DNA of 23,052 nucleotides. It comes from Bradymonadia bacterium. Its GTDB lineage: Bacteria; Myxococcota_A; Bradymonadia; UBA7976; UBA1532. The stretch is from the NCBI GenBank assembly GCA_046290225.1, contig JBKAGE010000017.1:1-23052 (forward strand), given 5' to 3'. The notes below the pieces were generated by a model. It worked only from the letters and a program-made list of their open reading frames with translations. It was not told the DNA's origin and ran no database searches. Positions 284-18,900 of this stretch are shown here, piece by piece. Within the stretch, counting starts at the first letter, position 1. Each line of letters begins with the position of its first letter. The translations under genes were made by a program, and so were the position numbers.

Positions 284-2581
284 ATGCGTCGTCTTCACCG
301 CTGGATGTCCGCCATCGCCCTCAGCGTCACGCTGCCCACCGCCGCGAGCGCCTTCGACTTCAACATCCCTGATCTGCCCGGACCCATTTTCGCCACCCCC
401 AGCTTGGAGGACTGCCAGGACCCGAACTTCGTCAACGAAGTACATCCCATCGTGTCCAATCAGTGCATGCAGGTGCTCGGCGAGGCCGCTGCCGAAGAGG
501 TCTACCAGGCGCGACTCGAGAGCCGGCTGTCCACCACCTATACCCCAGCCATCGTCGACGGCAGCCCCATGGCCACCGCACTTCGAGGCACCACGATTCG
601 AGATCGGGCTCGCGGGGGCATCGGCGGCGGCTTCGTCTTGCCAGAGTGGTTTGCCTACGAGTTCGATGGTGCTGAGATCGGGAGTTGTGATGAGTATGTC
701 TATCAACGGTTCTATCACTACAACAAATACATGCAGAAGGTAGAGAACGCCGACAACTCTCGCGAAGCCTTCGATGCAGCCTTCGACGAAGATGGCACTG
801 GTAACATCGGCCACCGATACAACACCAATGGCTATGGTGTCATGAGCCTGTCCAATCGATACAACAGCGCAGATCAGGTCGATGATCCCCTCATGCCGGT
901 TCATGGTCATCTGGTGCCCGATCTCGGCGTGTATGTCTGGGACATGCCCAAGAATGACTTCTTCGCCCTCACCGACTCCGAGATCACCATGGTTCGGCGG
1001 TATGCACCGGACATCGCCGACATGCTCGATGACGGGCAGCATTACTACCGTGTGCGGTTGAATGGTCGTCGTTCAGCCTATCGGTATGGACAACACCCCA
1101 CCCCCTGGGAGCTACATCTGCAACTCGCTGAAGCCCTCGATGGCGAGCGCGACGCCGAGCTGGAGGTCATCGCCGCTCGACGCAGCACGATGCAGCGCCT
1201 GCTCAAAGAGCGCCGTACGCTGATGCGCAGCGGCGCCTCTCAATACAACTGGGACGTGCGCGCCGTCGATCGTCAAATCGTCGACGCGCTCCGACAGGCA
1301 GACCTCGACGGCTGCCTCGACATCGACAGCAGCCTCGATCGACAGAATGGTGAGTATGACTACAACCGCTGTGACTGGGCCCCAAGCGATCTGCCCACTC
1401 AGGTGCAGCGTGTGATGGAGCCCAAGCTGAAGTTCGCTCGCCAGCTGTGCGAGACCCACTACCCACCGGCAGAAGCCGAGCACGGCTACACGTACCGCAC
1501 CCTCTATGGCAGCCGGATCGAATCCGGGCAGAACCCCTTCGCTGATTCGTTCTACATGCGCCGGTACCTGGAGAAGATGCGGGACCAGACCCGGTACTAC
1601 CTGGGCCAGTTCGACGCCGACACCCGGAACAGCAACGGCGAGCCCAACGTACCCAACTGGAACCGCGCCTATGGTGAGCGCTGGGTGTGGGGCGACGAGG
1701 ACATCGCCGCCGCGGAGTTCGGGTACCACGCTGAGTGGGGGCTCTCCGATGGCGCAGTGCGCAACACCTGTGACGTCAACCCGCAGTTCGATGTCGGCGG
1801 CAACATCACCGGGCACATCTTCGGCAAGGAGAAAGACGTCGTGCGTGCCCTCGCCGCCTTCGACCTGCGCCGCAACCGCCGCGAGCTGGACTTCGAGCTC
1901 TTTGGTCGGGACTACCTCAACTACAACTGGGAGCGTAGTGGCAACGTCAACCCAAGCTTCGCCGGTACCAGCCTCAACGAAGACATCCACTGGGACACGG
2001 TGCGCAGCTACGAGAAGTGCAAGACCTTCGTCATCGCAGCGGTGCCCATCTCGGTGTGCGGGGAACTGTCGGGCCGCGTGGGCTTCGACTTCGATCTCAG
2101 CGCCTACGCAGGGGAGAGGATTCAGGGCACCAACGCGTGTGAGCCCAATGCCACGGCGTCGATCACTGCGCGACCCTTCGCCACCGTCGACGCCATCGGC
2201 AGCGGCGGTGTGGGGGTGAGTGGCCTGAGCGGCGGTGTGTACGTGAGCGTGAACCTGCTCGACATGTCTCTGCCTGCAGAGCTCAACGCTTCGGTGAACG
2301 CCCCCCACGACACCACCCAGCGCCTCGCCGACATCGAGGTGAGCGTCGACGGCTCCGCTGAACTCGAACTCAGCTCCCTCGCTGGCGAGGCCGGCGGTTA
2401 CGTGGAGTTCCCCCGGGTGTGCATCCCCTTCACCAGCAAGTGCGTAGGGGGTCGTTACAACAAGTCGTTCTTCGACTGGGATCGCGCCCTGCACACCACC
2501 TTCGACCTCTTCGACTTCGAGTGGAACCTCAGCATCGACGTCTGGCAGCAAATCTGCGGCCTCCCCGACTTCGACTGCTGA
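284..2581 (+). CDS. Secreted Cys-containing protein (765 aa) with a C-terminal amphipathic beta-sheet region resembling the lipovitellin/MTP open beta-sheet (DUF1943-like)
   Basis: Long ORF with strong GC3 bias. AGGAG RBS at 272-276 favours ATG 284 over 242. Sec signal peptide MRRLHRWMSAIALSVTLPTAASA|F. 14 Cys. Alternating-hydrophobic strands from about 1658 to the end. Terminator immediately downstream. The CDS is secure; the product is inferred. Confidence 0.85.
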   Translation: MRRLHRWMSAIALSVTLPTAASAFDFNIPDLPGPIFATPSLEDCQDPNFVNEVHPIVSNQCMQVLGEAAAEEVYQARLESRLSTTYTPAIVDGSPMATALRGTTIRDRARGGIGGGFVLPEWFAYEFDGAEIGSCDEYVYQRFYHYNKYMQKVENADNSREAFDAAFDEDGTGNIGHRYNTNGYGVMSLSNRYNSADQVDDPLMPVHGHLVPDLGVYVWDMPKNDFFALTDSEITMVRRYAPDIADMLDDGQHYYRVRLNGRRSAYRYGQHPTPWELHLQLAEALDGERDAELEVIAARRSTMQRLLKERRTLMRSGASQYNWDVRAVDRQIVDALRQADLDGCLDIDSSLDRQNGEYDYNRCDWAPSDLPTQVQRVMEPKLKFARQLCETHYPPAEAEHGYTYRTLYGSRIESGQNPFADSFYMRRYLEKMRDQTRYYLGQFDADTRNSNGEPNVPNWNRAYGERWVWGDEDIAAAEFGYHAEWGLSDGAVRNTCDVNPQFDVGGNITGHIFGKEKDVVRALAAFDLRRNRRELDFELFGRDYLNYNWERSGNVNPSFAGTSLNEDIHWDTVRSYEKCKTFVIAAVPISVCGELSGRVGFDFDLSAYAGERIQGTNACEPNATASITARPFATVDAIGSGGVGVSGLSGGVYVSVNLLDMSLPAELNASVNAPHDTTQRLADIEVSVDGSAELELSSLAGEAGGYVEFPRVCIPFTSKCVGGRYNKSFFDWDRALHTTFDLFDFEWNLSIDVWQQICGLPDFDC

Positions 2582-2608
2582 CACTCTCTGACGCAGACCC
2601 TCGACATG

Positions 2609-2657
2609 GCGAGGGGGCCGGTGATGATGTTCGCCCCCTCGCTCCAATTTCTTTTTT
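2609..2657 (+). terminator. Rho-independent terminator after the first gene
   Basis: Perfect 10-bp stem GCGAGGGGGC (2609-2618) / GCCCCCTCGC (2633-2642), followed by TCCAATTTCTTTTTT. Confidence 0.75.
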
Positions 2658-2658
2658 A

Positions 2659-2817
2659 GAGGTCCTAACACAACGGCGGACCGAGTCAGGCACGTGAGGC
2701 GCGAGTGAGGCAGTCGAAAGACCCACAGGCGGGCCCAAAGGCCCGTCGAGGACGCTTTCGGCAGCCTCGCGAAGTGCATCGCGTTCCTGGCGACGGGAGC
2801 TGTTTTGCTAGGACCCC
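2659..2817 (+). repeat. 159-bp imperfect palindrome (MITE-like element or structured RNA)
   Basis: Terminal inverted repeats GAGGTCCTAACACAAC (2659-2674) / GTTTTGCTAGGACCCC (2802-2817) match at 13/16. Pairing continues inward with small internal loops to an apical stem GGCGGGCC-CAAA-GGCCCGTC (2728-2747). Confidence 0.75.
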
Positions 2818-2872
2818 ATAGATCAGACCTTTCGAGTTTTCCCCTTTTGACCGTCTTCCACAGGAGATCATC

Positions 2873-4738
2873 ATGGGCACCCTGCGCAACATCGCTTTGA
2901 CCTGTACGCTCACCGGCCTCACAGGGGGTTTGGTGTACCTCTCCACCACTGGCCCGGCGGTGAAGCATGGGCCAGACCAGCCTGTCACCCAGACAGCCTC
3001 CCGAGCCATGGTGACCGCCGAGTCGATCCTCTGGGCGCCGCGAACCACTTACCGCTTTCGCCTGACCCACGAGAGCGAGAGCCACGTCAAGATGACCCCG
3101 GAGCAAACACAGCCATTCTCGGGGCGCGCCCGCTGGGCTGGAGATCTGCACCTGACCCCCACCGAAGATGGCGAGGCCCTGCTGGCTCGACTCACCGACG
3201 TGAGGGTGGCTCAGTTCGACGTGCTGGGGCAGCCCAACCCGCTCGCCTTGGTAGAACTGGAGGGCCTCACCGCCCGGATCGAACTCACCGAAGGTGGCGG
3301 TCTGGGTGATCTCAGAATCCGGTCAGGCACACCGGAGATGCCCGCGCGGATCTTCTCGGAGGCCCTGGCGCAGCTGCGCTTCGAGGTTGAGGCCGGAGCC
3401 GATGGGTGGGTGTCCAATCACGGCGATGCCCTCGGCGAGGGCGAGGTGCACTACGCAGTCGATCAAAGCAACGGGCCGTGGTCCGCCAAACGCACCAGAG
3501 CAAGCTACGACGCTATCTCGGCGCTGCCTCATCTCACCTCCGAGACCCCACGCGTCGAGGGTGAAGGGCGTGTGCTCACCACCGCTGATGGCGCCCTCGA
3601 GCGTATCACTGAGTCACGTGGACTCGTGATCGTCGACGGCCACGATCAATCGCTGGTGGAGATGCACGTCTCGGTGGGGCTCCAACGCCTCGGCAGTCGA
3701 ACGGCAGAGGCTGTCATCGCAGAGGATGACACACATTGGGTCGACCTCTCTGATCTCGCCCACCGCCGCCAACTCGATGCTGATCTGAAGGCCCGAGTGG
3801 GCGACATGACCCTGGAGAAAGCCCTCGACGCCCTGGCCACCAGGGCAGGTCGTACGCTGTTGCCCGATCACAGCGAGTGGCTGTGGCGCGTCACGGGGTT
3901 GCTCACGCTTCACCCCGAGCTGTGCGCTGCTTTTGCCGAGGGTGCTCTACAGCATGGCTATGATCCGCAGCGTCTGGCCCTCGACCTTCTGGCGTCTACG
4001 GGGCATGCATCGGCACAAGACGCCATGTTGAAGATGTTCGACGCCTCGTCCATCGACGATGGGACCCAACGCCATCGTATGGTGCACAGCCTGTTGTTGG
4101 TGGAGCAGCCCACTGAAGCCACCGTGTCATTTGCCCGCCAACGCTACGCCGAAGGCGCGGTCGATGCTCTGGCGGCGGCGAACGCCATGGGCAGCATGGC
4201 CGGTGAGCTCGCATCTATGGGTCGTGACACAGAGGCGACATCTCTGGTGCAGCAATTGAGCGAAGGTCTCGCCGCAGCTGACTCGGATCATGCCCGTAAG
4301 GCCCATGTGGTGGCTCTGGGCAACAGCGGGCACCCCAAAGCGCTGGAGACCCTGGTCGAGGCGACCCATGACGAGGCGACGACGGTGCGCCGTGCCGCAG
4401 CTCGCGCCCTGCGACATCAAGACAACGACTCGGCGGCAGATGCACTGGTCCGTCTCACGTTGGACGATGACGCCGAGGTGCAGGCTCAGGCCGTGGCCTC
4501 GTTGATACACATGGGTGTGTCACCGGGAGATCTCGACCCCCTCGGCGATCAGGTCCGCGACTCGGGTCTGTCACCACAGGTGGCTCGGGCAGTGCTCGAG
4601 GCGGCAGAGCGACACCGATTGCCCGAGGCAGAGGCAGAGGAATGGATGGAGACGGTGGCAGGCTCTGATCTACCTCGACGCTACATCGAGCGGGCCCTCA
4701 AGGTGCAAGCAGCGGTTCGAGGTCGCGAGGCGATGTGA
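2873..4738 (+). CDS. N-terminally anchored protein (621 aa): beta-rich N-domain plus HEAT-like alpha-solenoid, resembling the Vitellogenin_N/LPD_N lipid-transport domain
   Basis: AGGAG RBS at 2862-2866. Hydrophobic N-terminus. Beta region begins WAPRTTYRFRL. Helical motifs LDLLASTGH, EQPTEAT, AMGSMA, ALGNSGHP and VRRAAARALR. The HEAT repeats are clear; the lipid-transport assignment is inferred. Confidence 0.85.
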   Translation: MGTLRNIALTCTLTGLTGGLVYLSTTGPAVKHGPDQPVTQTASRAMVTAESILWAPRTTYRFRLTHESESHVKMTPEQTQPFSGRARWAGDLHLTPTEDGEALLARLTDVRVAQFDVLGQPNPLALVELEGLTARIELTEGGGLGDLRIRSGTPEMPARIFSEALAQLRFEVEAGADGWVSNHGDALGEGEVHYAVDQSNGPWSAKRTRASYDAISALPHLTSETPRVEGEGRVLTTADGALERITESRGLVIVDGHDQSLVEMHVSVGLQRLGSRTAEAVIAEDDTHWVDLSDLAHRRQLDADLKARVGDMTLEKALDALATRAGRTLLPDHSEWLWRVTGLLTLHPELCAAFAEGALQHGYDPQRLALDLLASTGHASAQDAMLKMFDASSIDDGTQRHRMVHSLLLVEQPTEATVSFARQRYAEGAVDALAAANAMGSMAGELASMGRDTEATSLVQQLSEGLAAADSDHARKAHVVALGNSGHPKALETLVEATHDEATTVRRAAARALRHQDNDSAADALVRLTLDDDAEVQAQAVASLIHMGVSPGDLDPLGDQVRDSGLSPQVARAVLEAAERHRLPEAEAEEWMETVAGSDLPRRYIERALKVQAAVRGREAM

Positions 4739-4751
4739 TTAACAAGTGTGA

Positions 4752-7700
4752 TCAACCACCCTTCTTGAGACGCTTCAACTCTCGCCGGGCTTCTTCGGCG
4801 TAGTCGCCGTTGGGCGCCACCTTCAGATATGCCTCGCACTCTTGAGCTGCGAGGGCGTTCTTGCGCTTGTCCCGATAGATCACGCAGAGGCTGTAGTGAG
4901 GCTCTGCGAGCGTGTCATTGAACTTCACGGCATTCCTCAAGAAGGGCACCGCCTCGTTCACCTTGTCCTGGCGCAGGAGCGACTGCGCTGCCTTGAGGTG
5001 CGCATCACCGTTCTCCGGTGAGAGGGTGATGGCCTGCTGGTAGTGCTTGAGCGCCAGATCGGACCGACCTCGGAGCGAGAACGAGTCGCCATACGCGATC
5101 CAGACCTCGGCGCGGGTGGCGTCGTAATCGAGCACCTTCTTGAAGTCTTCGCTCGCCCGGCTGTAGAGCGAGCGCATCATGCGCATCTGGCCACGGCGAT
5201 AGAAGGCGTCATAAAGCTTGCGGTTGATCTCGGGCTGCCGGCTGAGGGACTCGGCCACAGTGTTGTAGGCCGCCGAGGCCTGCGTGATCTTGCCCGTGGC
5301 CTCGAGGGCACGACCGAGCCAGTAGTGGTAGACGAGGTTGCCCTTCTTGTCGTCGTGGGCCAGCTTGAACTTGCGCACGGCGGCGGGGAACCGGCCCCGA
5401 TCGAAGGCCACCCGACCCATATAGTAGTGGGCGTCGGTGAGGTTGCCGTTGAGACGCGCCACCTCACGCAAGGTCTGATCAGCGGCGTCATAGTCACGCT
5501 TGTGGAACTGGGCTGTACCCAGGGCGAGCATGAACAACCCGTTTTTCGGCTGCCGCGCCAGGGCTGTCTCGAAATACTTGATGGCCTGGTCGGGCTGACC
5601 CGTGGCCATAGCCACTCGACCCTGGTCGAAGTCGAGAGGGGCACTGTAGGTGCCCCGGGCGATCAGGATCTTGAGCTGCGCCTGGGCTGCCTCTGCCTCT
5701 CCACGGTCGAGGTAGGCTTCGACCAGCTTGTGGCGCGCCTCGTCGAGGCTCGGATCGAGCTCTACGGCCTTGCGCAAGGAGCGCTCGGCCATGGCCAGGA
5801 GTTCCTGGTTGGTGTCGGCGCTGGCCACCTTGTGCATCAGACGGCCATACCCGAACTGCAGCAACGCACTGTCGGGGTGCACCTTGAGCACCTCTTCCAA
5901 GTACTTGATGGCGTCGGCCACCTGTGACTGCTGCATCAGCATGGCCACGATGTCGAGGTGGGTCTGATGATCGTCCGGAGCCACCTCGAGGGCCTTGTCG
6001 TAGGCCACCCGCGCTCGATCATAGCGCCGCATGCGCACCTCGAGTTTTCCGAGGGCCCGGCGAATGGCCGATGATTCCGGGAAGGCCTTGATGCCCTCTT
6101 GGAGCACCGCCAACGCTTTGTCCATGCCCTTGAGCGCCTGATGCGACTCCGCGATGGCCACGACCAGCTCGGGGGTGTTCACCCCTGCACCACGCAGCTT
6201 TTCAAAGAGGCTGAGTGCCTGGTCATAGGCAGCCTCTTCGAACAAGACCTCGCTGAGCATCTCAACAGCCTCAAGATCGCTCGGCCAGGTCTCGACCGAC
6301 TGCCTGAACGCTTCGATGGCGGCTTTTTTGTCGTTCTGCTTCAGCGCGATGCGGCCGCTCAAGGTGAAGGCCGCCGCCCGCTCTCGGGCGGTCATCGTGC
6401 TCGTATCGAGGGCGAGCAGCTCATCTGAGGCGGTTTTGGCGTCTTCGAGCTGTGACTGGGCAAACCCCAGGCGCGCCCGCATCTCGAGGTTGATCGGCGC
6501 CGCGGGCTTCACCTCGGTGAGGTGCTTCAAAGCAGCCCGACCTTGCTCGATCTCTCCGCTGGCGGCGCTGCTCAGGGCCAGCATACGCCATGCAGGCAGC
6601 AGGTGTGTGTCACTGCGCGTGGCGTCGGCAAAGGCCTTGGCTGCTTGCTTGTCCATACCCAGCCTGACCCTCAGCAGACCGAGGAGATGCTGGCTGCGGG
6701 CGTCTTCGGGGTGCCGGCCGGCGAACTCGATGATGTCGTTCACCATGCCATCTGGAGGCCGCTTGTCCCCGAGATTGGCCAGGGCTGCTGCATAGGCCGC
6801 CCGCTCACCCTTCCAGTCGCTGCGGACCGCCTCGGGCATGCGGGACACCATCTGCTGTGCCTTGTTGCCCCAGCGGTCGCCCCCAGGGAACTCGAGGGCG
6901 CCAAAGGCGTACAGCTCGGTCACCAGGGTCGAGAGATCGCCCTTGGGCTCTCCACGCTGCTCCAGCTCGGCCACGGCCTTGCGGTAGTCGGAGATCTGCA
7001 CGAAGCCTTCAGTGCGCACCACCTCGGCGATGGGGGCCTGCTCACCCACAGGCTTGGGATCGACCTGAGGATCCTTGGTGGGCTTCTTGTTCGGGTTCGT
7101 GGTGGAGTTGCCGAGGACCGACGGATCTTTGGGCTGCTGAATGGGCTTGGGTTGATCTGCAAAAGGTCCGAGGCCCAAGGCGGCGCTGGCACCAATGGCC
7201 GCAGCGCCGGCGACGCCGAGCACTCCGAGGAGCATCCAGGACCGCTTGCTCGCCTGCTTTGGCGCAGGTGGGGTGACCTTCTCTGGTGTGCGCTCCGAGA
7301 TCTCTTCTTCTTCAACCGGGTCTTCCATACCCGGGCCCGAGGGCGGGGGCTCGACCCCTTCGAAGATCTCGTCGATACGACGGGCCTGCTCGGCAGGATC
7401 ACCAGAGATATCGATGGTCTTGCGGGGCACCATGCGGCCGATGGCCACCTTGGGTGCCGGCAGCTCGGCTTCGACCTTGGGCGCCGGCAAGTCGGCAGCA
7501 CCGACCTCACCACCCATCGGATCTGCCCCGCGCACAGAAGGCGCGTCACCCACCCCAGGCACTGACATGGGGGAAGGGGTATCGCTCACCGAGGGCAGGT
7601 CCGTGGGGCCGGGCAGATCCATGCCACCCTGCGCCCGTGGCCCTGGCAGGTCGACCACAGCCCGTGGCGCGGGCAGATCGGTGGCGCCCTTGAAGCCGGG

Positions 7701-8642
7701 CAGATCACTCACCGACTTCGGCGCTGGCAAATCGCTCACTGCCTTCGGTGCAGGCAGATCGCTCAAGGCTTTTGGTGCGGGCAGATCGATGCCCCAGTCG
7801 GGCACATCGTCTGGCACTGGGCCCTTGGGTGCCGGCAAATCAGCCATGGGATCAACACCTCGAAGGGCGCTGGGCATGGACGAGCTGCGAGGTGATTCAC
7901 CCACCGGTGCCGGCAAGTCCGGCGGCGGCGGGGTGTGGGGTACCGCCTGACCCACCTCGGGGTTCGGGGTGGCCATGATGACGTTCGACGGGAGCGGCAG
8001 GGTCTCAGCATCTCCCTCGGGGAGGGGTACGCCTGCGGGCAACTCGCTCTCGCTCACCCCGTCGGGGGCAGCACTGCTCAACGCCAGGGGATCGATGTCG
8101 AGACCGAGATCTTCCACATGGAACCGGAATTCGAAGTCTTCCGGCTTCATGCGCTCCTGGCCCCCGTCACCCGCGCTCACCTGACCACCGAGGTGCGCGT
8201 AGGCATCACCTGGGGCGCTGCCCATGGGATCGAAGCTCGACGGCAACGGCGTCGGGGTCAGATCTGCCGCAGGCTGCAGGGCAGGCTGTGCCTCGATGCC
8301 CGGGAACGACTTCAGGGGCATCCAGACGCGCTGATCCACCGAGGCGTCTTCTTGACCCGTGAGCTGGCTCTTGTTGATCAACGACTGCACACGAGAGGTC
8401 TCGTAGGGGCCGATGACCCGGCCTTCGTTGGTCCGGATGTAGAGCGAAGTGGGTGGCGGAGTCAGGCTGAGGAACGGATCGTCGCCGAAGACCCCCAGGG
8501 GATCGCTCTCATCTTGCTGAGCGCGCTCGGGCACAGCAAAGACGTGGCTGCATTGGGTGCAGGCGATCAGGGCACCGGGTGTGGGCTCAAGGCCGTCCAT
8601 GAACGACTGATCGGCGCCGCACTTGGGGCAGGTGATCTTCAT
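4752..8642 (-). CDS. MJ0042-type zinc-ribbon / GYF_2 (DUF4339-like) / Pro-rich linker / single TM / multi-TPR protein (1296 aa)
   Basis: N-terminal CPKC...CTQC. GYF_2-like LYIRTNEGRVIGPY...W. DLPAPK repeats. TM WMLLGVLGVAGAAAIGASAALGLGPF preceded by KQASKR. More than 15 TPR-like units (e.g. AHYYMGRVAFDRGRFPAAVRKFKLA). GGGGA upstream of the ATG. Confidence 0.92.
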   Translation of the reverse strand: MKITCPKCGADQSFMDGLEPTPGALIACTQCSHVFAVPERAQQDESDPLGVFGDDPFLSLTPPPTSLYIRTNEGRVIGPYETSRVQSLINKSQLTGQEDASVDQRVWMPLKSFPGIEAQPALQPAADLTPTPLPSSFDPMGSAPGDAYAHLGGQVSAGDGGQERMKPEDFEFRFHVEDLGLDIDPLALSSAAPDGVSESELPAGVPLPEGDAETLPLPSNVIMATPNPEVGQAVPHTPPPPDLPAPVGESPRSSSMPSALRGVDPMADLPAPKGPVPDDVPDWGIDLPAPKALSDLPAPKAVSDLPAPKSVSDLPGFKGATDLPAPRAVVDLPGPRAQGGMDLPGPTDLPSVSDTPSPMSVPGVGDAPSVRGADPMGGEVGAADLPAPKVEAELPAPKVAIGRMVPRKTIDISGDPAEQARRIDEIFEGVEPPPSGPGMEDPVEEEEISERTPEKVTPPAPKQASKRSWMLLGVLGVAGAAAIGASAALGLGPFADQPKPIQQPKDPSVLGNSTTNPNKKPTKDPQVDPKPVGEQAPIAEVVRTEGFVQISDYRKAVAELEQRGEPKGDLSTLVTELYAFGALEFPGGDRWGNKAQQMVSRMPEAVRSDWKGERAAYAAALANLGDKRPPDGMVNDIIEFAGRHPEDARSQHLLGLLRVRLGMDKQAAKAFADATRSDTHLLPAWRMLALSSAASGEIEQGRAALKHLTEVKPAAPINLEMRARLGFAQSQLEDAKTASDELLALDTSTMTARERAAAFTLSGRIALKQNDKKAAIEAFRQSVETWPSDLEAVEMLSEVLFEEAAYDQALSLFEKLRGAGVNTPELVVAIAESHQALKGMDKALAVLQEGIKAFPESSAIRRALGKLEVRMRRYDRARVAYDKALEVAPDDHQTHLDIVAMLMQQSQVADAIKYLEEVLKVHPDSALLQFGYGRLMHKVASADTNQELLAMAERSLRKAVELDPSLDEARHKLVEAYLDRGEAEAAQAQLKILIARGTYSAPLDFDQGRVAMATGQPDQAIKYFETALARQPKNGLFMLALGTAQFHKRDYDAADQTLREVARLNGNLTDAHYYMGRVAFDRGRFPAAVRKFKLAHDDKKGNLVYHYWLGRALEATGKITQASAAYNTVAESLSRQPEINRKLYDAFYRRGQMRMMRSLYSRASEDFKKVLDYDATRAEVWIAYGDSFSLRGRSDLALKHYQQAITLSPENGDAHLKAAQSLLRQDKVNEAVPFLRNAVKFNDTLAEPHYSLCVIYRDKRKNALAAQECEAYLKVAPNGDYAEEARRELKRLKKGG
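7449..7919 (-). repeat. Coding repeat: about 12 DLPAPK-like motifs, including six tandem 27-nt (9-aa) units at 7626-7787
   Basis: DLPAPKALS-DLPAPKAVS-DLPAPKSVS-DLPGFKGAT-DLPAPRAVV-DLPGPRAQG plus dispersed copies, read from the translation. Confidence 0.85.
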
Positions 8643-8777: not shown

Positions 8778-8831
8778 ATGTACGTCATGAACCGACATAC
8801 ACCTTTAGCACATGGAAAGGCTCTGTGGGGG

Positions 8832-9497
8832 GTGCTGCGACGCGGGCACATTGTGTTGTGTGCTCTCATGCTCCTCACATGGACGGGGGCGACACGTTCG
8901 GCACAGGCGGTGACCCCCGGTGGCCCGGTGATCTACGACGGCGAGGCACGCTTTGGCTTCGATGTCCGCATGGGCACGGTGGTGCCTGTGCAGCTGCTCG
9001 ACGGGCCGGGTTTGCACCTCGCCGTAGGTGGCCGTACCCGGATCGTCGGTCCGTTGTGGCTCCATCTGGAGGGAGGGGTCGATCGGGTGGCGGTGTCTTC
9101 GCTCTCCGAGACCGTGGCCCTCACCAGCGGCACCGCTGAGGTCGAGACCACCTACGCCCGTTGGTCCATGCCCGCCTTTGGCGGCCTGGGGTTGCACTGG
9201 CGCCTCGGAGACGAGGGACAACATACCTTCGGGATCATGGCCCTCGGCGGCGGCGCCTGGCAGTACGGCCGACAAGATGTCTCGGTGCGGGGTGATCCGG
9301 GCCTGAGGGTGCGCCGGGATCGATGGTTCGAGCCCCTCGCCCAGGGGCGCATTCAGGGCGGCATCGGCCTCGATGTCGGGGTGCTCACCCTGGCTCTGGG
9401 CTGGCGAGGCACCCTCGCCCCGGTGGAAGACCACGTGAGCCGGGGTGTTCAAGCAGATGGGATCTTGTTGGAGGCAGGATGGTCTTCTCGTTTCTGA
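8832..9497 (+). CDS. Probable 8-stranded outer-membrane beta-barrel protein
   Basis: GTG at 8832 gives a typical signal peptide (M)LRRGHIVLCALMLLTWTGATRSAQA|V, with GGAAAGG upstream. The ORF is open from 8778, so the start is uncertain. About eight Gly/aromatic amphipathic strands. C-terminal LLEAGWSSRF ends in Phe (BAM beta-signal-like). Confidence 0.75.
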   Translation: MLRRGHIVLCALMLLTWTGATRSAQAVTPGGPVIYDGEARFGFDVRMGTVVPVQLLDGPGLHLAVGGRTRIVGPLWLHLEGGVDRVAVSSLSETVALTSGTAEVETTYARWSMPAFGGLGLHWRLGDEGQHTFGIMALGGGAWQYGRQDVSVRGDPGLRVRRDRWFEPLAQGRIQGGIGLDVGVLTLALGWRGTLAPVEDHVSRGVQADGILLEAGWSSRF

Positions 9498-9934
9498 AAA
9501 AGCACGCGGCGGCGTTCGTGATGACGAGCGCCCTCGCGTTGCCGGCCTGCGACGCCCCTGACTTCGAAGTTCAGGCGCCGCTCTTCGTGTTCAACACCTA
9601 CCCCGCCAACGGCTCCACCGTCTCTCGGATCGATCTCGACGAGTTCCTCATCGTCTTCTCGAGAGATCTGGGCACCGCGGAAGATGTGCGCGATTCCATC
9701 GAGACATGGCTGCGGCTCTCCGACGAAGAGAGCGAGCTGGTACTGATCAGGCCTGATCAAACCAACGTGTCCTATGACGCAGAGTTCTACACGGTTCGGG
9801 TGCTCGTCGATGGCCCGCTGAAGTCGGGCATGGCCGGTGGGTTGTACACCCTCACTGTCGATCCGGGCCTCGAGAGCGTCGATGGCATACGCATGCCCCA
9901 ACCCTTCAGCGTCAGGTTCCGTCTGGCGGATTGA
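9479..9934 (+). CDS. Lipoprotein with a bacterial Ig-like (Big_5-type) domain (151 aa)
   Basis: GGAGG RBS at 9470-9474 and ATG 9479, overlapping the upstream CDS by 19 nt. Lipobox LALPA|C. Big_5-like pattern TYPANGSTV..IVFS..L...YTLTV..GLES.DG..M..P.S..F. Confidence 0.8.
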   Translation: MVFSFLKKHAAAFVMTSALALPACDAPDFEVQAPLFVFNTYPANGSTVSRIDLDEFLIVFSRDLGTAEDVRDSIETWLRLSDEESELVLIRPDQTNVSYDAEFYTVRVLVDGPLKSGMAGGLYTLTVDPGLESVDGIRMPQPFSVRFRLAD

Positions 9935-9958
9935 CCCGCGTTTGGGTAAAGCCACTGT

Positions 9959-11092
9959 ATGGACAGTGAGCTCGTCACCCTCGGCCCCTACCGTCTGTTT
10001 CAGAGTCTCAAGAAAGGGGGCATGGCCCGGGTGTACCTCGGGGTGCACGTGGAAGATCCACACCGCGTGCTGGCCATCAAGACGCTGCTCCCCGAGCTGG
10101 CGGGCAAGTCGAACTACCGCGACATGTTCACCACCGAGGGCAAGGTGGGGCGCTTGCTCGAGCACCACCACATCGTGGCCACCCTCGACGCAGGCCGCGC
10201 CGGCGACACGCACTTCATCGTCATGGAGTATCTGCAGGGCTTCGATCTGAGCACCTTGCTCAGGCAGCTGCGCAAGCAAGGGCACACGATGCCCCTGGGC
10301 GTAGCCCTCACTCTGGCCTGCGCCATGGCAGAGGGCCTGGCCCACGCCCACGATCTCACCGACGAGCATGGCCGTCCTCTCGACATCGTGAACCGCGACG
10401 TGAGCCCTGGAAACGTGATGATCACCACCACGGGCCGCGGGGTGCTCATCGACTTCGGCATTGCCCAGACCACCGTCGATGTCCGCAGTCAGATCGGCAG
10501 CATCAAAGGCAAAATCAGCCACATGAGCCCCGAGCAGGTCCGAGGCCTGCCGGTGGACCAGCGCAGCGACGTCTTCAGCCTGGGCACGGTGCTGTATCAG
10601 ATGCTCACTGGGGTGAACGTTTTTCAGGACGATGGCGACTTCGCCACCATGGAGCGCGTACGTCGGGCAGAGGCCCCACCCCCCTCTCACCACCAGCCTG
10701 CCCTTCACGGCGCCCTCGACGATCTGGTCATGGCCACCCTCACCCCCCGAGCGATGGATCGAACCCCCTCGGCCCGGGCGCTGCTCGATGCCCTCCGGGG
10801 CTACATGCGCGATCATCAGATCGCCGAGGACGAGGCCGCGGTGGCGACGTGTCTGAGGCAGACACTGGGGCCCCGCCTGGAAGAACTGCAGAGCACTGTG
10901 GCGGCCCATCACCAGGGCGCTCTCGAGCAGTTGGGCGTCATGGCCCCCCGCCAGACCCTGCAAGAGGCCATGCCGCCCCCCGAGGTCGGTGAGCTGGCCC
11001 CACCTCCACCTTCGAAGTCCCCATTGCTGTGGGTGGTAGCCGCCGGGGTGATCCTCGCGGTGGTGACCGGTGTGATCATCTTCAATGTCTGA
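9959..11092 (+). CDS. Hanks-type Ser/Thr protein kinase with a C-terminal TM anchor (377 aa)
   Basis: GGMARVY, LAIK, alphaC Glu (FTTEG), NRDVSPGNV, DFG, SPEQ and SDVFSLG motifs. Terminal hydrophobic segment LLWVVAAGVILAVVTGVIIFNV. Confidence 0.95.
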   Translation: MDSELVTLGPYRLFQSLKKGGMARVYLGVHVEDPHRVLAIKTLLPELAGKSNYRDMFTTEGKVGRLLEHHHIVATLDAGRAGDTHFIVMEYLQGFDLSTLLRQLRKQGHTMPLGVALTLACAMAEGLAHAHDLTDEHGRPLDIVNRDVSPGNVMITTTGRGVLIDFGIAQTTVDVRSQIGSIKGKISHMSPEQVRGLPVDQRSDVFSLGTVLYQMLTGVNVFQDDGDFATMERVRRAEAPPPSHHQPALHGALDDLVMATLTPRAMDRTPSARALLDALRGYMRDHQIAEDEAAVATCLRQTLGPRLEELQSTVAAHHQGALEQLGVMAPRQTLQEAMPPPEVGELAPPPPSKSPLLWVVAAGVILAVVTGVIIFNV

Positions 11093-14000
11093 CGCCTTTG
11101 CGCCCCTGCAGTGGACCCTCCTCGAAGCGCGCCTCGCCGAGGAAGGTCTGTATCCCATGGCCCGAGCGGCCCTGCTCGCGGGTCCTCTGGAGTGCCCACG
11201 GGCGGCGGTGGAGGCGGCCCAGAGTGCACTGTCGAGCGCCGGTACAGATCTGACCCCAGTCCTGTTGTTGATGCAGCTGGCCCTGCACCTCGACGACGAG
11301 GGGGTGGCCCGCTCGACCTGGGCCCACACACACACGCATCTGTGCCATGGCGCGCTGCCTCCTGTGGAGAGCGGCGCCCTGGCGCTCACCTGGGCGCTGA
11401 TCTGGACGCTGCGCTGGCCCGACGCCGAGCGGGCGGCGCAGGCCCTCGAAGTGGCGACGCCCTACGACAGCCTGCGCCTCGGCGATCTGCTCACGTCGCT
11501 CACCGGCTCGCTCGACGAGCGCATCGCCCGGGCCCGACATCGCCTCGAAGGGGCTGTGGACGCCGACGATCGCGCCCGCGGGCAGCTGCACCTCGGGCGT
11601 TTGCTGCTCTCTGCAGGCGATCTGACGGAAGGCGCCGCCCTGGTAGACGCAGCGGTGTCCTCGGGTGCTGATCTCGACGAGGCCGCCCGCCTCGCCCTCT
11701 GGCACCGACTCGAAGTGAGCTGGCGTACCTCTGACGCCCTGGGGATGCCGCTCATCGAGGCCCTGGCCAGGACCTTGCCCCCATCTGGCGCCGGGGCACT
11801 CTGGCACCTCGCCGCAGATCTGCTCGCTCAACGAGGCGAAGACGCCCGGGCAGAGCGCTTGTACGCCCGAGCCGCCGCAGGGCCGAGCGGGCTGGTCATC
11901 GCCCTCAAGCGTCTGCACCGCGCGCTGTCTGATCCATCGCTCGAGCCTGCTCGACATGCCAATCGACTGCACGACGCGGTGCTCGCCGGCGCGGATACAG
12001 GTCTGGACGAGCTGCTCTCGATCCGCAGCGCCGAGCTGTGCCTCGAGGCTGATCTCGACGCCCGCACGGACCTTGATGTCTCCTCGGCCTCCGACGCCCT
12101 CGCCCGCGTCCGCTGGCATCAACGTCGGTGGTCCGATCTGCGCTTGCTCGTGGACCGTCGCCCGCCGAGCGCAGCGGTGTCGATCTTCACCGCCGCCCTC
12201 GACCTCATGGCCCTGAAAGACGCCGAAGGGTGCACGCGCACCCTGCTCGACCTCGCGTCGTCCGGTCTCGACGGGGACGACGAGACCACAGCCCTGATGG
12301 GCTGGCGCCTGCGCCAGCTCGCCGGTGACGATCGAGGGGCGCTCCGCGCCGAGGCTGACCGGCAACCTGATCTGCAACGCCGCGTGAGCGTGCTCGTACA
12401 GCTGGTGCACGCAGCCCTCGCGGATCCATCGGCTCGACTCGACGCACATGTGGCCCTCGAAGCGGCTCTGGGCTTGGATCCACGGCACCCCACGGCGCTG
12501 TTGCTCGGGGTAGAGCTCGGCCGTCAGTCTGGCCGGCCAGGGCCCTGGGCCGAGGCCCTGACCCGAGCCATCATGGCCTTCGCCACCGACGGCACGGCCC
12601 CCGGTCCATTGGGGCAAGCGCTGATCCACAGGCTGGCGGCGCTGTCGAGCGCAGCGCCGAAGGTGGCCCGGTTCCTCGCCGACGAGCACAGCGCCGCCAT
12701 GGGCAGCTGGCTCGATTCGCCGACGACGGCGGACCAGGCCGTGGAGATCCTCAAGGCGGGGGAGCGCTATGTCGTGCTCGAAGATCTGCTCCGCCAGGCG
12801 AGCGAGCGCTCTCCTCATCCACTGCACCGCGCTCGGCTCCTCGCCCACCGTGGACAACTGCTGTGCGACTTCGCCGACCGGCCGGCGGAGGGTGGTGATC
12901 TGATCCAACGGGCCCGAGCCCTCATAGAGTCGGCGCCTCCCTCAGAGAGCCGCACAGCCTTGCAGGACTGGATGAGCAGCTGGCAGGGCGGTGAGTCTGC
13001 TCACACGGTGGTGCACGCCGTGACGCAGGAGACCACCCGCGTCGCTGGCACCACCCCCGACGAGCCCGAGGCATGGGGATCGACGGTGGAGGCGCCGGCC
13101 ATGCCCTCAGAGGCGGCCTCTGATCCACAGCCGAGCTCACCCTTGGGGCCTGCCCGCCGCACAGGAGGGGCACGCAGCCGCGCTGCGGTGCGTCGAAGGC
13201 TGGCCCGTGCGAAGTCGGACCAGCGAGGGGCTGCGATCACGTGGCCCGACCTGGGCCGGATGCAGATCCGCAACGCCCTCGACGCGTTGAGCGCTGCAGA
13301 TGACGCCCACAGCCGGGCAGAGGCGGCAGCTGAGGTGGCAGAGCAATACGAAGCCGCGGAGGCAGAGGCAGAGGCCATCGCCGCGTGGCGAGAGGTCCTG
13401 GCCTGGCGTTCGGGCTCTCTGCTGGCCATCGAGCGCCTGCTGGTGCTCTGCACGCGAAGAGGAGACTGGAAAGGCCTCGCTCAAACACTGCAGCTCGCCA
13501 TCGACGCCTCTGGCGACACAGCGCGCCGCCAGCAGCTGATCCTGAGCCTCACTGAGATCTACACCGAGCGACTGCACGATCCCGCCTCGGCGGTGCCCCA
13601 CCTTCGACGAGCACTCTCGGAGCGCCCTGGAGATCAACACCTCGTCACCCTGCTGGCCGCCACCCTCAAAGGGGCCCGCATGTGGAGCGACTATGTGCAG
13701 GTGGTCACCGCCTCCGGGCAGATCGACGCCCACCCGGAGGTGGCCTTGGAGGTGGGTCAGGTGCTGCTGCACCACCTCGACGATCCACAGCGGGCGGCGC
13801 CTCTCATCGAGCGCGTGGCGCCACAGATGCTGCACGCCGTAGACGAAGACACCTCGATCCAGCTGCTGCGGGATCTGGCCACCGTGAGGGCGGTGACAGG
13901 GGCCCTCGACGAAGCCATGGCCCTGCTGGACCGGGCGATCACCATGGCCACCCCCTCCCAGGCTCTGGCCCTGCGCTTGTCGCAGGCGCAGCTGGTTCAG

Positions 14001-17000
14001 AGCCACGGCGACGATCCAGCGCAGGCCCTGGCGCTCTACCGACGCGCCCTCGGCGAGGGGCTGCACGACCTGGCCCTGCTCGAGCAAGCAGAGCGCCTCG
14101 CCATCGATCTTCGGGCCTGGGGGGTGCTGGTGGAGATCCTCGGCGCCATGGCCCGACAAACGGCAGACCATGCAGACAAACGGGCGCTGCTGATCCGGCT
14201 GGGGCATCTACACCGGGCCCGACTGGATGAGCCACTCAAAGCAGCGGACTGCTTTGTCGAGGCCTTCGAACTCGATCCTGCAGATCAGAAGCTGTACCGC
14301 CTCATCGTGGGTCTGGTGGACGCCGACGAAGATCCACAGCGGGTGGCCTTGCGGATCAGGGTGCACCAGGCCTGGTTGTCGGCAGTGCCTGATCCGAGCC
14401 CTCAAGCCCGCGTCGAGGTGGCCCGGCAGCTCGCTGCTGCCTATGAGGCCGCGGAGCAGCCTACAGACGCCGCCCGCGTGTTGGAGTCAGTGTGGCACGC
14501 GTTGGGAGACGACCCAGCGGTGCACGCTCTCCTCGCCCCTCTGGAGCGCGCATACAGACGGGCCGGGCAATGGGCGGAGCTCGCCCGTCTCTACACCCTG
14601 GGCTTGAGCCAGAACCCCTCGGAGGCCCGACAGACGGTCTTGTTGCGTCATCTCGCCCGGGTGCAGGAGACGGGGCTGCACGATCTCGTGGCGGCGACGG
14701 AGACCTGGGGCAAAATCCTCACCATCACGCCGGACGATCTCTCGGCGGTGCGGGCGCTGTGCCGCCTGCTCGAGGCCCAACGGCGCTGGGACGAGCTCAT
14801 CGAGGCCAGCGGCCGCGAGTTCGAGCTTCAGCCTGATGACGCCCACAAGGCCCACGTACTTTTCCGCATCGGCAGTCTCTACGAGACCCACCTCGACGAC
14901 ACGGCCATGGCCCAGCAGGTCTACGAGCAGGTGCTGCGCCTCGATCACGGGCACTTCCCGGCGTTGCATGGTTTACGAGCCCTGGCCACGGCGGCGGAGG
15001 ACTGGCCTGCGGCGATCAAATGGCTGCAACGAGAGGCCGATCGCTGGGACAAGCCCCGTGAGAAAGCGGCGGTCCTGGCTCAGATCGGCTTGATCGAGCG
15101 CGACAAGCTCGAACGGCCACACAAAGCGATGGCCACCCTGATGCAGGCCTTCGAGCTGTGGCCCGCCTGCGTACCCGCCGCCAGGGCCCTCGGCGACGCC
15201 GCCTACAGCATGCAGGCCTGGGAGCGGGCGGCGACATTCTACCAGGCCGTCACGACGCAGAAGCTCAGTCGCTGGTCTGCCCACGATCGCGCCGAGATCT
15301 TCACACGTCGCGGACTCATCGCGCTGCAGCTGGGCAACCACCATGAGTCCGCAGAGAGCCTGCGCATCGCCCTGGAGATCAACGCTGACCATCCTGGAGC
15401 CCTCGAGGCCCTCGTAGAGGCCAATGGGGCTCTGGAAGATCCCATCGCTGAGGGTCCAGATCTCCGGGCCCGCGTCGAGGTCAGGCGCCAGACCCTGGCC
15501 AACGCCGGCGCCTCGGTGATCGAGCGAGCCCGGGTAGAAATCCTCGAAGGTCATCTGCGACGACAAGCCCTCGATCTCGACGGCGCCCTCGAAGCCTACG
15601 GTGCGGCCATCACTCTGGCGCCTGATCAGCTCGACCTCAGGCAACCCCTGGTGGACTTGCTCACGGCCCTACGTCGCTGGCCAGAAGCCACAGCCACCCT
15701 CGACGCGCTCTGCGTCCGCCTGGAGGATCGACTCGAAGACGACACAGCCCGGGCCGCCTACCTCGAGGCTCAGGCACAATCCGCCATGCTGTGGGGTGAC
15801 TTCGCCGTCGACACCGCTCAGGCAGAGGATCGATGGGTCAAGGTGGCCCGCGTGGCCCGGGGGGTGGACGATCGACGCCACCGCGAGGCCCGGCTGGCCG
15901 TCGCTCAAGGTGCCTTCCTCGAGGGTGATCCCACTCGGGCCCTGTTCCTCGTGGAGCGTTTGCTCGAAGACGTCACCGCACGGCCAGAGTCGGTGTCGGG
16001 TCCGGAGCTGGCGTCGATCTATGCCTACGCAGGGGTGATCCTCACCAAGGGCCTGGACGACCAGACACAGGGCGCCGCCCGGCTGATTGAAGCCCTGAAG
16101 ACCGATCCCCGTTGCGCCATGGGCCTGCTGGCGCTGTTGAGGCTACGGCATCGACAATCAGGGGGCACGGTCTCCGACGAGCTCACCACGCTGCTCGAAA
16201 CCCACAGCGGTCTCATCGAGGCCTGCCCTGCCCGAGATCTGCAACACAGCGCCCTCAAGATCTTCGCCGCGGAGCTCTGGAGTCAGATCGAGCCGGGCAA
16301 GGGCCGCGGGCTGCTGGAAGATCACGCCCGCGGCGGCCCCGGCGCCCGTGATGCACGTCTGGCCCTCGCCCACGGCCCCAACAGCACCGTGGAGGCCGGG
16401 GCGAACCATCTCTATGACGCCCTGGAAGAAGACATCTGTGATCTCGACGCCTTGAGATCTCTCGCCCGCCTCGCACAGCAAGAGGGCGACGATGATCTCG
16501 AGCTGAGGGTCCTGGAGGTGCTCGATCTCTGTCGCGCAGTGTCGGGCCCTGATCTCGACCAGCTCCGGCAACTGCAGAGCAAGGCCCGCAGGCGACTCGA
16601 GCGCGGGCCGAGGGACCCACGCGCCGACTTGCGCTTTCAGACGCTGCACCACCCGGGCTGGTCGAGCCCGCTCATCGAGCTGGTGCGCCTCTGCGAGCCC
16701 CTTCTCCTGCCTCTACAGCCCCCACGCCCACGACCTCAGGTGCGCCGCAATACCGCCTTGGGGCCTCGCAGCGGACATCCCTTCGCAGCAGAGCTCCCAG
16801 CGGTCTTCGAGCTGTTGGGCAAGCCCACCGCCGAAGTCCACGGCCTGCCAGGCCTCACCCTCGGCGAGCCACCCATCACCGTCTGGCCCGACGCAGTACC
16901 GCGCATCGTCTTCGCAGCTCAGCCGCCCGAAATCGCATGGACCATCGCCCAGCAGAGGTTCTTGCTGGGGCGGGCGCTGTGCCTCACGGGCCACGGGTTG

Positions 17001-17447: not shown

Positions 17448-17549
17448 TGTCCGAAATCTACAAGCCCCTGACTCTACGCAATTCTCTAGAGACAGATTGG
17501 CTTCGTGTTTTATCAATACCTGAGCACACATGTCAGCGAAGGATGCACG

Positions 17550-18872: not shown

Positions 18873-18900
18873 GCGCGACCGACTGAACACCACAACCTGA

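What the first reader, a model, noticed from the sequence alone, without database searches (positions are those of the whole stretch)
284..4738. Candidate split bacterial large lipid transfer protein (vitellogenin/MTP/apoB-like) encoded as a two-gene pair
Seen: two adjacent co-oriented exported proteins. One ends in a ~300-aa beta-sheet region; the other is a beta-domain plus alpha-solenoid. Established: eukaryotic LLTPs are single chains of N-terminal beta-barrel + alpha-helical domain (Vitellogenin_N/LPD_N), followed by open beta-sheets (DUF1943) that line the lipid cavity. Inference: ORF2 matches the first module and the ORF1 C-terminus matches the second, so together they could form a complete LLT module in trans, with the gene order permuted. 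This suggests an envelope or secreted lipid loading/transport system, for example a membrane-anchored loader plus a secreted cargo subunit carrying an extra N-terminal domain. It would bear on the origin of LLTPs. A toxin-plus-chaperone pair is the alternative reading.
Basis: partly seen in the sequence, partly recalled or inferred. Interest (0 to 1): 0.8.

Follow-up and report, generated by a model that had tools for sequence, protein, structure and literature searches.

The report
Split bacterial vitellogenin/MTP-like gene pair
Two neighbouring genes of a myxobacterial relative encode the front half and, probably, the back half of the animal lipid carriers (vitellogenin, MTP, apoB) as two exported proteins that stay linked across many genomes, so bacteria seem to own a two-piece version of a supposedly animal machine, although binding of the two proteins to each other or to lipid is not shown.

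Summary
Both genes are real. ORF2 (2873-4738, 621 aa) is a true relative of the front half of animal large lipid transfer proteins: Pfam Vitellogenin_N above cut-off, profile hit to lipovitellin E 3e-14, and a confident model whose eleven best Foldseek hits are MTP, lipovitellin, apoB and bee vitellogenin. ORF1 (284-2581, 765 aa) ends in about 290 residues of amphipathic strands; three structure searches rank MTP's C-terminal lipid-binding sheets first among solved structures, but modestly (Z 8.4, next 7.7), with no firm sequence signal. Linkage is tight in both directions: 39 of 48 ORF2 loci have an ORF1 relative directly upstream, 18 of 19 loci picked by ORF1 have ORF2 beside it. The ORF1 front end is a swappable passenger; some loci show a minimal partner in animal gene order. 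No fused form was found. The complex could not be modelled, so the interface and lipid binding are untested. Best reading: a two-chain, membrane-anchored MTP-like lipid module (about 0.55). Not found in ten literature searches, but this scan reported the same pair at least eight times on other DNA, once in this genome.

The parts
284..2581 (+). ORF1, 765 aa exported partner protein (no Pfam or NCBIfam family)
   Evidence: family of 3154 representatives at E<=0.001 for its C-terminal profile
284..352 (+). ORF1 predicted cleavable Sec signal peptide (aa 1-23, ends Ala-Ser-Ala)
   Evidence: sequence read by eye; 92 of 135 family members starting with Met carry an AxA pattern, 6 of 135 a lipobox-like pattern (loose regex)
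383..1620 (+). ORF1 helical, cysteine-rich N-terminal domain; six Cys conserved in 99-100% of aligned members (C44, C61, C135, C344, C363, C389); subfamily-specific, fold unassigned
   Evidence: model; conservation; absent from 19 of 19 distant ORF1 loci
1661..2533 (+). ORF1 C-terminal two-sheet beta domain (aa 460-750), best match MTP C- and A-sheets; strands strongly amphipathic; conserved C496 and C619
2608..2658 (+). GC-rich hairpin (11-bp stem) followed by a T run between the genes; possible terminator or mRNA-stabilising stem
   Evidence: -27.3 kcal/mol, z -2.2, 5 of 200 shuffles as good; not called by the terminator scan
2873..4738 (+). ORF2, 621 aa, front half of the large lipid transfer (LLT) module
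2891..2947 (+). ORF2 N-terminal hydrophobic segment, probable uncleaved membrane anchor (weak here, hydropathy 1.33; clearer in homologues)
3044..3703 (+). ORF2 N-terminal beta-barrel (LLT N-sheet)
   Evidence: VIA-align to apoB barrel 9bd8 Z 16.0, rmsd 4.9, 231 aligned; HEAT-free profile ranks lipovitellin 84-161 first, E 0.023
3746..4732 (+). ORF2 alpha-helical solenoid (Vitellogenin_N helical part, HEAT-like), with the ALGN motif shared with lipovitellin
   Evidence: PF01347 34.3 bits vs cut-off 24; motif in 36 of 45 members and in 1lsh alignment

Best explanation
A two-chain bacterial LLT module. ORF2 is exported and held in the inner membrane by its N-terminal anchor; it supplies the beta-barrel and the helical clamp (shown: homology and fold; inferred: location). 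ORF1 is exported by Sec with its signal removed; its C-terminal two amphipathic sheets dock into the ORF2 clamp and barrel as the C- and A-sheets do within one chain of MTP (inferred), so the polar faces meet ORF2 or solvent and the hydrophobic faces enclose a small MTP-like cavity that binds envelope lipid, most likely phospholipid (inferred). The beta domain works as a constant docking and lipid-loading foot on which very different extracellular passenger domains are carried (shown: modular architecture; inferred: purpose). Here the passenger is a 410-residue disulfide-rich helical domain. Whether lipid is loaded onto an outgoing ORF1 or collected from outside is open.
For: ORF2 homology: PF01347 over cut-off, 22 of 45 members hit it at E<=0.01; 45-sequence profile hits 1lsh_A 84-507 at E 2.7e-14 and MTP at 2.2e-7; model pLDDT 91.9; Foldseek ranks 1-11 all LLTPs, E 1e-15 to 2e-8; 1lsh aligned 14-578 to 17-632, which stops where the sheets begin. 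ORF1: Foldseek ranks 1-5 are MTP, lipovitellin, vitellogenin (E 1e-4 to 0.016); MTP 8eoj_B 579-870 is the only Z>=8 among 48,161 chains (Z 8.4, rmsd 5.0, 213 aligned); 6i7s_G 575-877 Z 8.5, 242 aligned; Atlas rows 4-5 are MTP_lip_bd (TM 0.55) and Vit_open_b-sht (0.48) after three bacterial clusters. The two chains thus cover complementary, non-overlapping parts of MTP. Strands alternate hydrophobic and polar faces across 90 sequences. Linkage: 39 of 48 (29 of 41 with a 4-sequence profile that had not seen these loci), 18 of 19 reciprocal, 11 of 11 in five further genomes; the pair survives changes of order and strand.
Against: The ORF1-MTP match is middling: Z within 1 of an unrelated insect pigment protein (7.7), identity 7-8%; no PDB hit by sequence profile; Pfam Vit_open_b-sht in only 2 of 32 members, both under cut-off, and 0 of 30 distant members. 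Amphipathic sheets are generic. 3 of 20 ORF2-led loci (L122, L132, L134) and L071 show no partner nearby. No lipid-handling or transport gene recurs near the pair. This genome has no squalene/oxidosqualene cyclase over cut-off, so self-made sterol is not the required cargo. Passengers of up to about 3,000 residues suit display better than shuttling.
Confidence: 0.55

Rival explanations
1. Same heterodimer, no lipid: ORF2 is a dedicated folding chaperone and docking receptor, and the ORF1 sheets are only a sorting tag that anchors or exports large adhesin-like passengers.
For: Passengers include RCC1, EGF, LamG, FG-GAP, FN3, Ig-like and beta-propeller domains (18 of 31 long members had a Pfam hit) and frames of 3,400-3,500 aa; the LLT barrel and helical domain are protein-binding parts in MTP (PMC6717300 passages); no lipid genes nearby.
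Against: Both ORF1 sheets keep a continuous hydrophobic face, which in MTP lines the lipid pocket; minimal partners with almost no passenger exist (L137-L139).
Confidence: 0.25
2. ORF1's C-terminal strands insert into a membrane as an autotransporter-like barrel or a pore-forming toxin, with ORF2 as chaperone or immunity partner.
For: Variable passenger plus conserved C-terminal 300-aa beta domain is the autotransporter layout (own knowledge); porins and BamA/TamA fill the lower ranks of the fold searches; the hosts are largely predatory Myxococcota (titles; predation recalled).
Against: Only 10 of 152 family members end in Phe, Trp or Tyr; barrel matches are either short (under about 130 residues) or at rmsd 9-21 A, whereas MTP aligns 213-242 residues at 5.0-5.6 A; MACPF-type hits have E>=0.19.
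Confidence: 0.1
3. The genes act in one pathway but the proteins do not form an LLT-like complex; the ORF1-MTP likeness is a generic curved sheet.
For: Z 8.4 is in the range that unrelated models reach (note); no sequence signal; some ORF2 copies stand alone.
Against: It would be chance that the constant neighbour of an LLT front half has exactly the missing LLT back half as top hit in three searches.
Confidence: 0.1

Closest known systems
Microsomal triglyceride transfer protein large subunit (human MTP-alpha; PDB 6I7S, 8EOJ)
   Same: Barrel (21-297), helical domain (298-603) and C/A-sheet sandwich (604-884) per PMC6717300; ORF2 matches the first two, ORF1's C-terminus the third; similar total size; both live in an export compartment.
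   Different: One chain versus two genes, usually in reversed order; ORF2 mostly has a membrane anchor; ORF1 carries a passenger N-terminal to the sheets; no PDI-like third gene is linked; lipid transfer unshown.
Lipovitellin / vitellogenin (PDB 1LSH; bee 9ENR, 9ENS) and apoB-100 (9BD8)
   Same: Best sequence match to ORF2 (E 2.7e-14), shared ALGN motif and barrel motif; lamprey lipovitellin's module is itself formed of separate, proteolytically cut chains (PMC12214520).
   Different: Much larger cavity and extra sheets or vWD domain; made as one precursor; the bacterial split falls between helical domain and C-sheet.
Bdellovibrio TipA/TipB (bioRxiv 10.1101/2025.09.09.675085)
   Same: Functional precedent only: an operon pair in a predatory bacterium, one lipid-binding protein of a fold known from animals plus a dedicated partner.
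   Different: TULIP fold, unrelated to the LLT module.
Bacterial 'HEAT repeat / Lipoprotein amino terminal region' hypothetical proteins (PF13646 + PF01347)
   Same: ORF2 belongs to these automatically named clusters (Myxococcota, Pseudomonadota).
   Different: The label names no partner and no function; ORF1's family has no Pfam model.

Membership tests
Large lipid transfer protein superfamily (LLTP) | N-terminal beta-barrel (N-sheet) | tested here: met
   ORF2 aa 58-277; Z 16.0 to apoB barrel; Atlas structure rows to MTP/Vg clusters meet the naming bar; barrel-only profile E 0.023, top hit lipovitellin
Large lipid transfer protein superfamily (LLTP) | Alpha-helical domain directly after the barrel (Vitellogenin_N, PF01347) | tested here: met
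   34.3 bits vs cut-off 24; continuous alignment to 1lsh 17-632
Large lipid transfer protein superfamily (LLTP) | C- and A-sheets, by fold | tested here: met
   In ORF1, not ORF2; MTP top, but Z 8.4-8.5 with the next unrelated row at 7.7: weakly met
Large lipid transfer protein superfamily (LLTP) | C- and A-sheets, by sequence (PF09172, PF19444) | tested here: inconclusive
   PF09172 in 2 of 32 members, 16.5 and 19.9 bits vs cut-off 23.7; 0 of 30 distant members
Large lipid transfer protein superfamily (LLTP) | Whole module encoded as one polypeptide | tested here: not met
   Two genes 291 bp apart; none of the 152 ORF1-family proteins held carries an ORF2 domain; a search for longer ORF2 forms returned only HEAT proteins (weak)
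Large lipid transfer protein superfamily (LLTP) | Helical clamp and barrel hold the sheets around a cavity | not tested
Large lipid transfer protein superfamily (LLTP) | Binds or transfers lipid | not testable with these tools
   Only amphipathic strand pattern seen
Large lipid transfer protein superfamily (LLTP) | Enters the export pathway | tested here: met
   Signal peptide or anchor by inspection and hydropathy; no dedicated predictor
MTP | Obligate PDI subunit | tested here: inconclusive
   No third gene recurs in the neighbourhoods; an unlinked partner is not excluded
Autotransporter / outer-membrane beta-barrel | C-terminal aromatic beta-signal (recalled) | tested here: not met
   10 of 152 end in F, W or Y
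Autotransporter / outer-membrane beta-barrel | Closed barrel fold | tested here: inconclusive
   Porin matches are partial or at high rmsd, but the model is a monomer with pLDDT 64-84 in this region
Pore-forming toxin (MACPF-like) | Toxin fold | tested here: inconclusive
   Only E>=0.19 Foldseek rows; ORF1's N-terminal domain was not folded and searched alone

The most novel reading that the evidence does not exclude
The LLT module is a widespread bacterial two-gene envelope system that predates animals; MTP arose by fusion of an ORF2-like gene with a minimal sheet-only partner lying downstream (the arrangement seen at L137), and vitellogenin and apoB descend from that fusion. In bacteria the module lipidates and displays a large, swappable set of extracellular proteins.
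Probability: 0.3. Interest if true: 0.9.

Novelty: new variant of a known kind. Interest (0 to 1): 0.72.

Why it matters
LLTPs are described as animal circulatory lipid carriers whose emergence is tied to multicellularity (PMC12214520, Introduction), with MTP as the suggested oldest member (PMC6717300, PMC3337244). A common bacterial, two-chain form gives a concrete candidate for where the fold came from and makes it testable: trees with both halves, a soluble two-protein reconstitution, and genetics in cultured myxobacteria (Citreicoccus inhibens M34, Sorangium sp. So ce726). It would also define an unannotated envelope system with thousands of members (3154 representatives at E<=0.001) that tags very diverse exported proteins.

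Tried and rejected
Fusion: long open frames over ORF2 homologues (1345-1696 aa) are GC shadow frames, with ORF1 in another frame; no fused protein found. Sterol carrier for self-made sterol: no cyclase over cut-off in this 99% complete genome; WS/DGAT search rang nowhere, controls included, so uninformative. Third conserved gene: none; the commonest neighbours were Ser/Thr kinases and a Cys-repeat protein in 7 loci each. Sequence searches of ORF1 against PDB, Pfam and NCBIfam were blank. No fold was found for ORF1's N-terminal domain, but it was only searched inside the whole model. Distance matrices of the two proteins correlate (Spearman 0.55, 56 pairs), but linked genes share history, so I do not count it as interaction evidence. 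Profile comparisons of two very divergent candidate partners were marginal. No phage match to ORF2. No RNA holder listed. Promoter scan: 2 sites vs 1.0 expected, uninformative. The search for related loci with a single distant protein found nothing. No tree with animal sequences was possible because none was held.
Full report
Observation. The window is a whole 23,052-bp contig (C17) of an 8.6-Mb, 99% complete genome. Named relatives of the pair are nearly all Myxococcota or records titled Deltaproteobacteria, and the neighbouring TPR, kinase and FGE-sulfatase genes fit that group (own knowledge). ORF1 runs 284-2581 (765 aa) and ORF2 2873-4738 (621 aa), both on +, both with an AGGAG before the start and gene-like codon-position GC. 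A 291-bp gap holds an 11-bp hairpin and T run. The pair is bounded by the contig start and a convergent TPR gene.

ORF2 is the front half of an LLT module. Pfam gives Vitellogenin_N (34.3 bits, cut-off 24) and HEAT_2; 22 of 45 aligned members hit Vitellogenin_N at E<=0.01. Because HEAT repeats could explain that, I tested the barrel apart. The 45-sequence profile aligns to lamprey lipovitellin 84-507 in one stretch (E 2.7e-14; MTP 2.2e-7; designed HEAT proteins rank higher but match only the last 130 positions). A profile without the C-terminal repeats still ranks lipovitellin first of 177,635 sequences, in the barrel, though weakly (E 0.023). The AlphaFold2 model (pLDDT 91.9, pTM 0.81) returns MTP, lipovitellin, apoB and bee vitellogenin as Foldseek ranks 1-11. 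VIA-align matches model 14-578 to 1lsh 17-632 (Z 16.5, rmsd 9.4), to MTP 23-615 (Z 16.1, rmsd 12.0) and the barrel alone to apoB (Z 16.0, rmsd 4.9); four designed-HEAT rows score Z 16.9-17.9 on the helical part only. MTP's helical domain ends at 603 and its lipid-binding sheets span 604-884 (PMC6717300, passages seen), so ORF2 stops where the sheets begin.

ORF1 ends in the missing half, on weaker evidence. It has no Pfam, NCBIfam or PDB sequence hit, yet its C-terminal profile finds 3154 representatives at E<=0.001. The model (90 sequences, pLDDT 76) shows a helical N-part and 16 strands over aa 460-750. Foldseek ranks 1-5 are MTP, lipovitellin and vitellogenin (E 1e-4 to 0.016). An independent alignment to 48,161 chains puts MTP 579-870 first and alone at Z>=8 (Z 8.4, rmsd 5.0, 213 residues); the next row, an unrelated insect protein, scores 7.7 over 94 residues, so by Z alone they are tied. 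The second look gives MTP 575-877, Z 8.5, 242 residues. The ESM Atlas model gives three bacterial clusters, then MTP_lip_bd (TM 0.55) and Vit_open_b-sht (0.48), all under its naming bar. Pfam Vit_open_b-sht appears in 2 of 32 members below cut-off and 0 of 30 distant ones. Ten of the 16 strands show a hydrophobic face (mean 1.4 to 2.9) opposite a polar one across 90 sequences.

Linkage. A 10-sequence ORF2 profile matched 25 of 301 genomes of the phylum at 42 places. I fetched all 40 foreign places and the paralog on C1. A profile from only four ORF1 sequences found a relative directly upstream in 29 of these 41. Adding 7 new named loci (one search gave 17; nine duplicates and one 31-residue match were dropped) and a wider profile, partly built from these loci, 39 of 48 have ORF1 directly upstream; three have it nearby in another arrangement (L072, L073, L077), three end at a contig edge, three showed none. 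Of those three, L041 has its partner 11 kb away and L079 a short beta-rich candidate upstream that scores only marginally. Reciprocally, I picked 19 loci from the weaker of the 84 ORF1 rows: 18 have a full-length ORF2 relative adjacent (15 downstream, 2 upstream, 1 divergent) and one ends at a contig edge. Of 20 ORF2 loci picked because no ORF1 had been found, iterated profiles found an upstream partner clearly in 12, weakly in 2, marginally in 2, by eye in 1, and not in 3; the same profiles hit only the two true genes among 35,850 ORFs of this genome. In five further genomes 11 of 11 ORF1 matches lie within about 1.3 kb of an ORF2 match. By genome, ORF1 is in 46 and ORF2 in 57 of 301, and 45 of the 46 overlap (the ORF2 profile included sequences from ORF1-picked loci, and kin are not independent). 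At least 43 of 101 genomes in the family of Citreicoccus inhibens carry ORF2. Atlas clusters extend both families to Pseudomonadota, Bacteroidota and Verrucomicrobiota. No third gene recurs.

Architecture. The beta domain is C-terminal in 148 of 152 family proteins. What precedes it varies: the helical Cys-rich domain seen here (135 of 152; none of 19 distant loci), extra RCC1, EGF, LamG, FG-GAP, FN3 or propeller domains, frames of 3,400-3,500 aa, or only about 110 residues (L137-L139). Several divergent partners carry a C-type-lectin-like insert inside the second sheet (under cut-off). ORF1 proteins mostly have cleavable signals; ORF2 mostly has a basic-hydrophobic-aromatic N-terminus typical of an uncleaved anchor, though L101, L110 and L140 look cleavable (by eye). 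At L137 an anchored ORF2 is followed about 200 bp later by a minimal partner, the animal domain order. No fused chain was found.

Mechanism. Shown: homology and fold of ORF2, modular build and fold likeness of ORF1, tight two-way linkage. Inferred: after Sec export the ORF1 sheets dock into the clamp and barrel of membrane-anchored ORF2, rebuilding an MTP-sized cavity; since phospholipid transfer is thought to be MTP's oldest activity (PMC3337244, passages seen) and this genome has no sterol cyclase, phospholipid is the likeliest cargo. I give 0.97 to ORF2 homology, 0.8 to the ORF1 sheets being the LLT back half, 0.75 to a heterodimer and 0.55 to the whole lipid-binding model. The complex could not be modelled, so the interface is untested. 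Rivals: lipid-free chaperone and display tag (0.25); membrane-inserting barrel or toxin (0.1; only 10 of 152 end in an aromatic residue); generic sheet without contact (0.1).

Known or new. It works, if the model holds, like MTP, but fails the single-chain feature, so I file it as a split variant rather than a member. Ten full-text searches listed no paper on a bacterial LLT module; I judged them by title and abstract start, the library lacks most subscription papers, and supplements were not read. Of papers opened I saw passages of PMC6717300 and PMC3337244, passages and the Introduction of PMC12214520, the abstract of the TipA/TipB preprint, and a blank term search in PMC12139934. Databases already label ORF2-like proteins with PF01347. 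This scan has reported the same kind of pair at least eight times, in other phyla and on another contig of this genome; my reading was formed before that look-up, and those notes are not independent evidence.

Verdict. Real, conserved and apparently unpublished; homology of the front half is firm, the back half probable, function inferred. Interest 0.72.

Noticed in passing
G000:C1 108,027-112,988 (L011 8025-12839, minus): Second, diverged copy of the pair in the same genome (785 and 613 aa, about 616 bp apart; 17-22% identity to the window pair).
   Followed up: yes
L137 2034-5407 (G382:C1): Anchored ORF2 followed by a minimal signal-peptide plus beta-domain partner: the animal domain order, one fusion away from an MTP-like chain. 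L138 and L139 hold similar minimal partners transcribed divergently.
   Followed up: partly
window 383-1620: ORF1's helical domain with six invariant cysteines and SCxEY, KNxFF, WH and CDWxP motifs is an unannotated, widespread domain found only ahead of the beta domain in what I examined.
   Followed up: partly
L117, L119, L120, L121, L124, L128 upstream genes: A C-type-lectin-like domain appears inserted within the partner's second sheet (Pfam under cut-off).
   Followed up: partly
L113 4343-13649: Two ORF1-like genes in tandem (1240 and 1304 aa frames) precede a single ORF2.
   Followed up: no
L115 (G116:C23): Pair separated by about 11 kb on the same strand; a transposase-like gene (recalled Rpn type) lies just downstream of ORF2.
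   Followed up: partly
L122, L132, L134, L071: ORF2 relatives with no detectable partner nearby.
   Followed up: partly
L052, L069, L072: ORF1 relatives split over two frames: sequencing errors or decaying copies.
   Followed up: no
window 2608-2658: Hairpin plus T run between ORF1 and ORF2 could give more ORF1 than ORF2 message; most homologous pairs are much closer together.
   Followed up: partly
window 4752-8642 (minus): 1296-aa zinc-ribbon, proline-rich repeat (DLPAPK), transmembrane, TPR protein of the common myxobacterial type.
   Followed up: no
window 8778-17447 (plus): Tightly packed run: unannotated 239-aa beta-rich exported protein, Ig-like lipoprotein, Ser/Thr kinase and a 2120-aa helical-repeat protein.
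   Followed up: no
window 17505-22704: FGE-sulfatase-domain lipoprotein with acidic P-D-A-E repeats (plus) and a convergent 1267-aa DUF4132 protein (minus).
   Followed up: no
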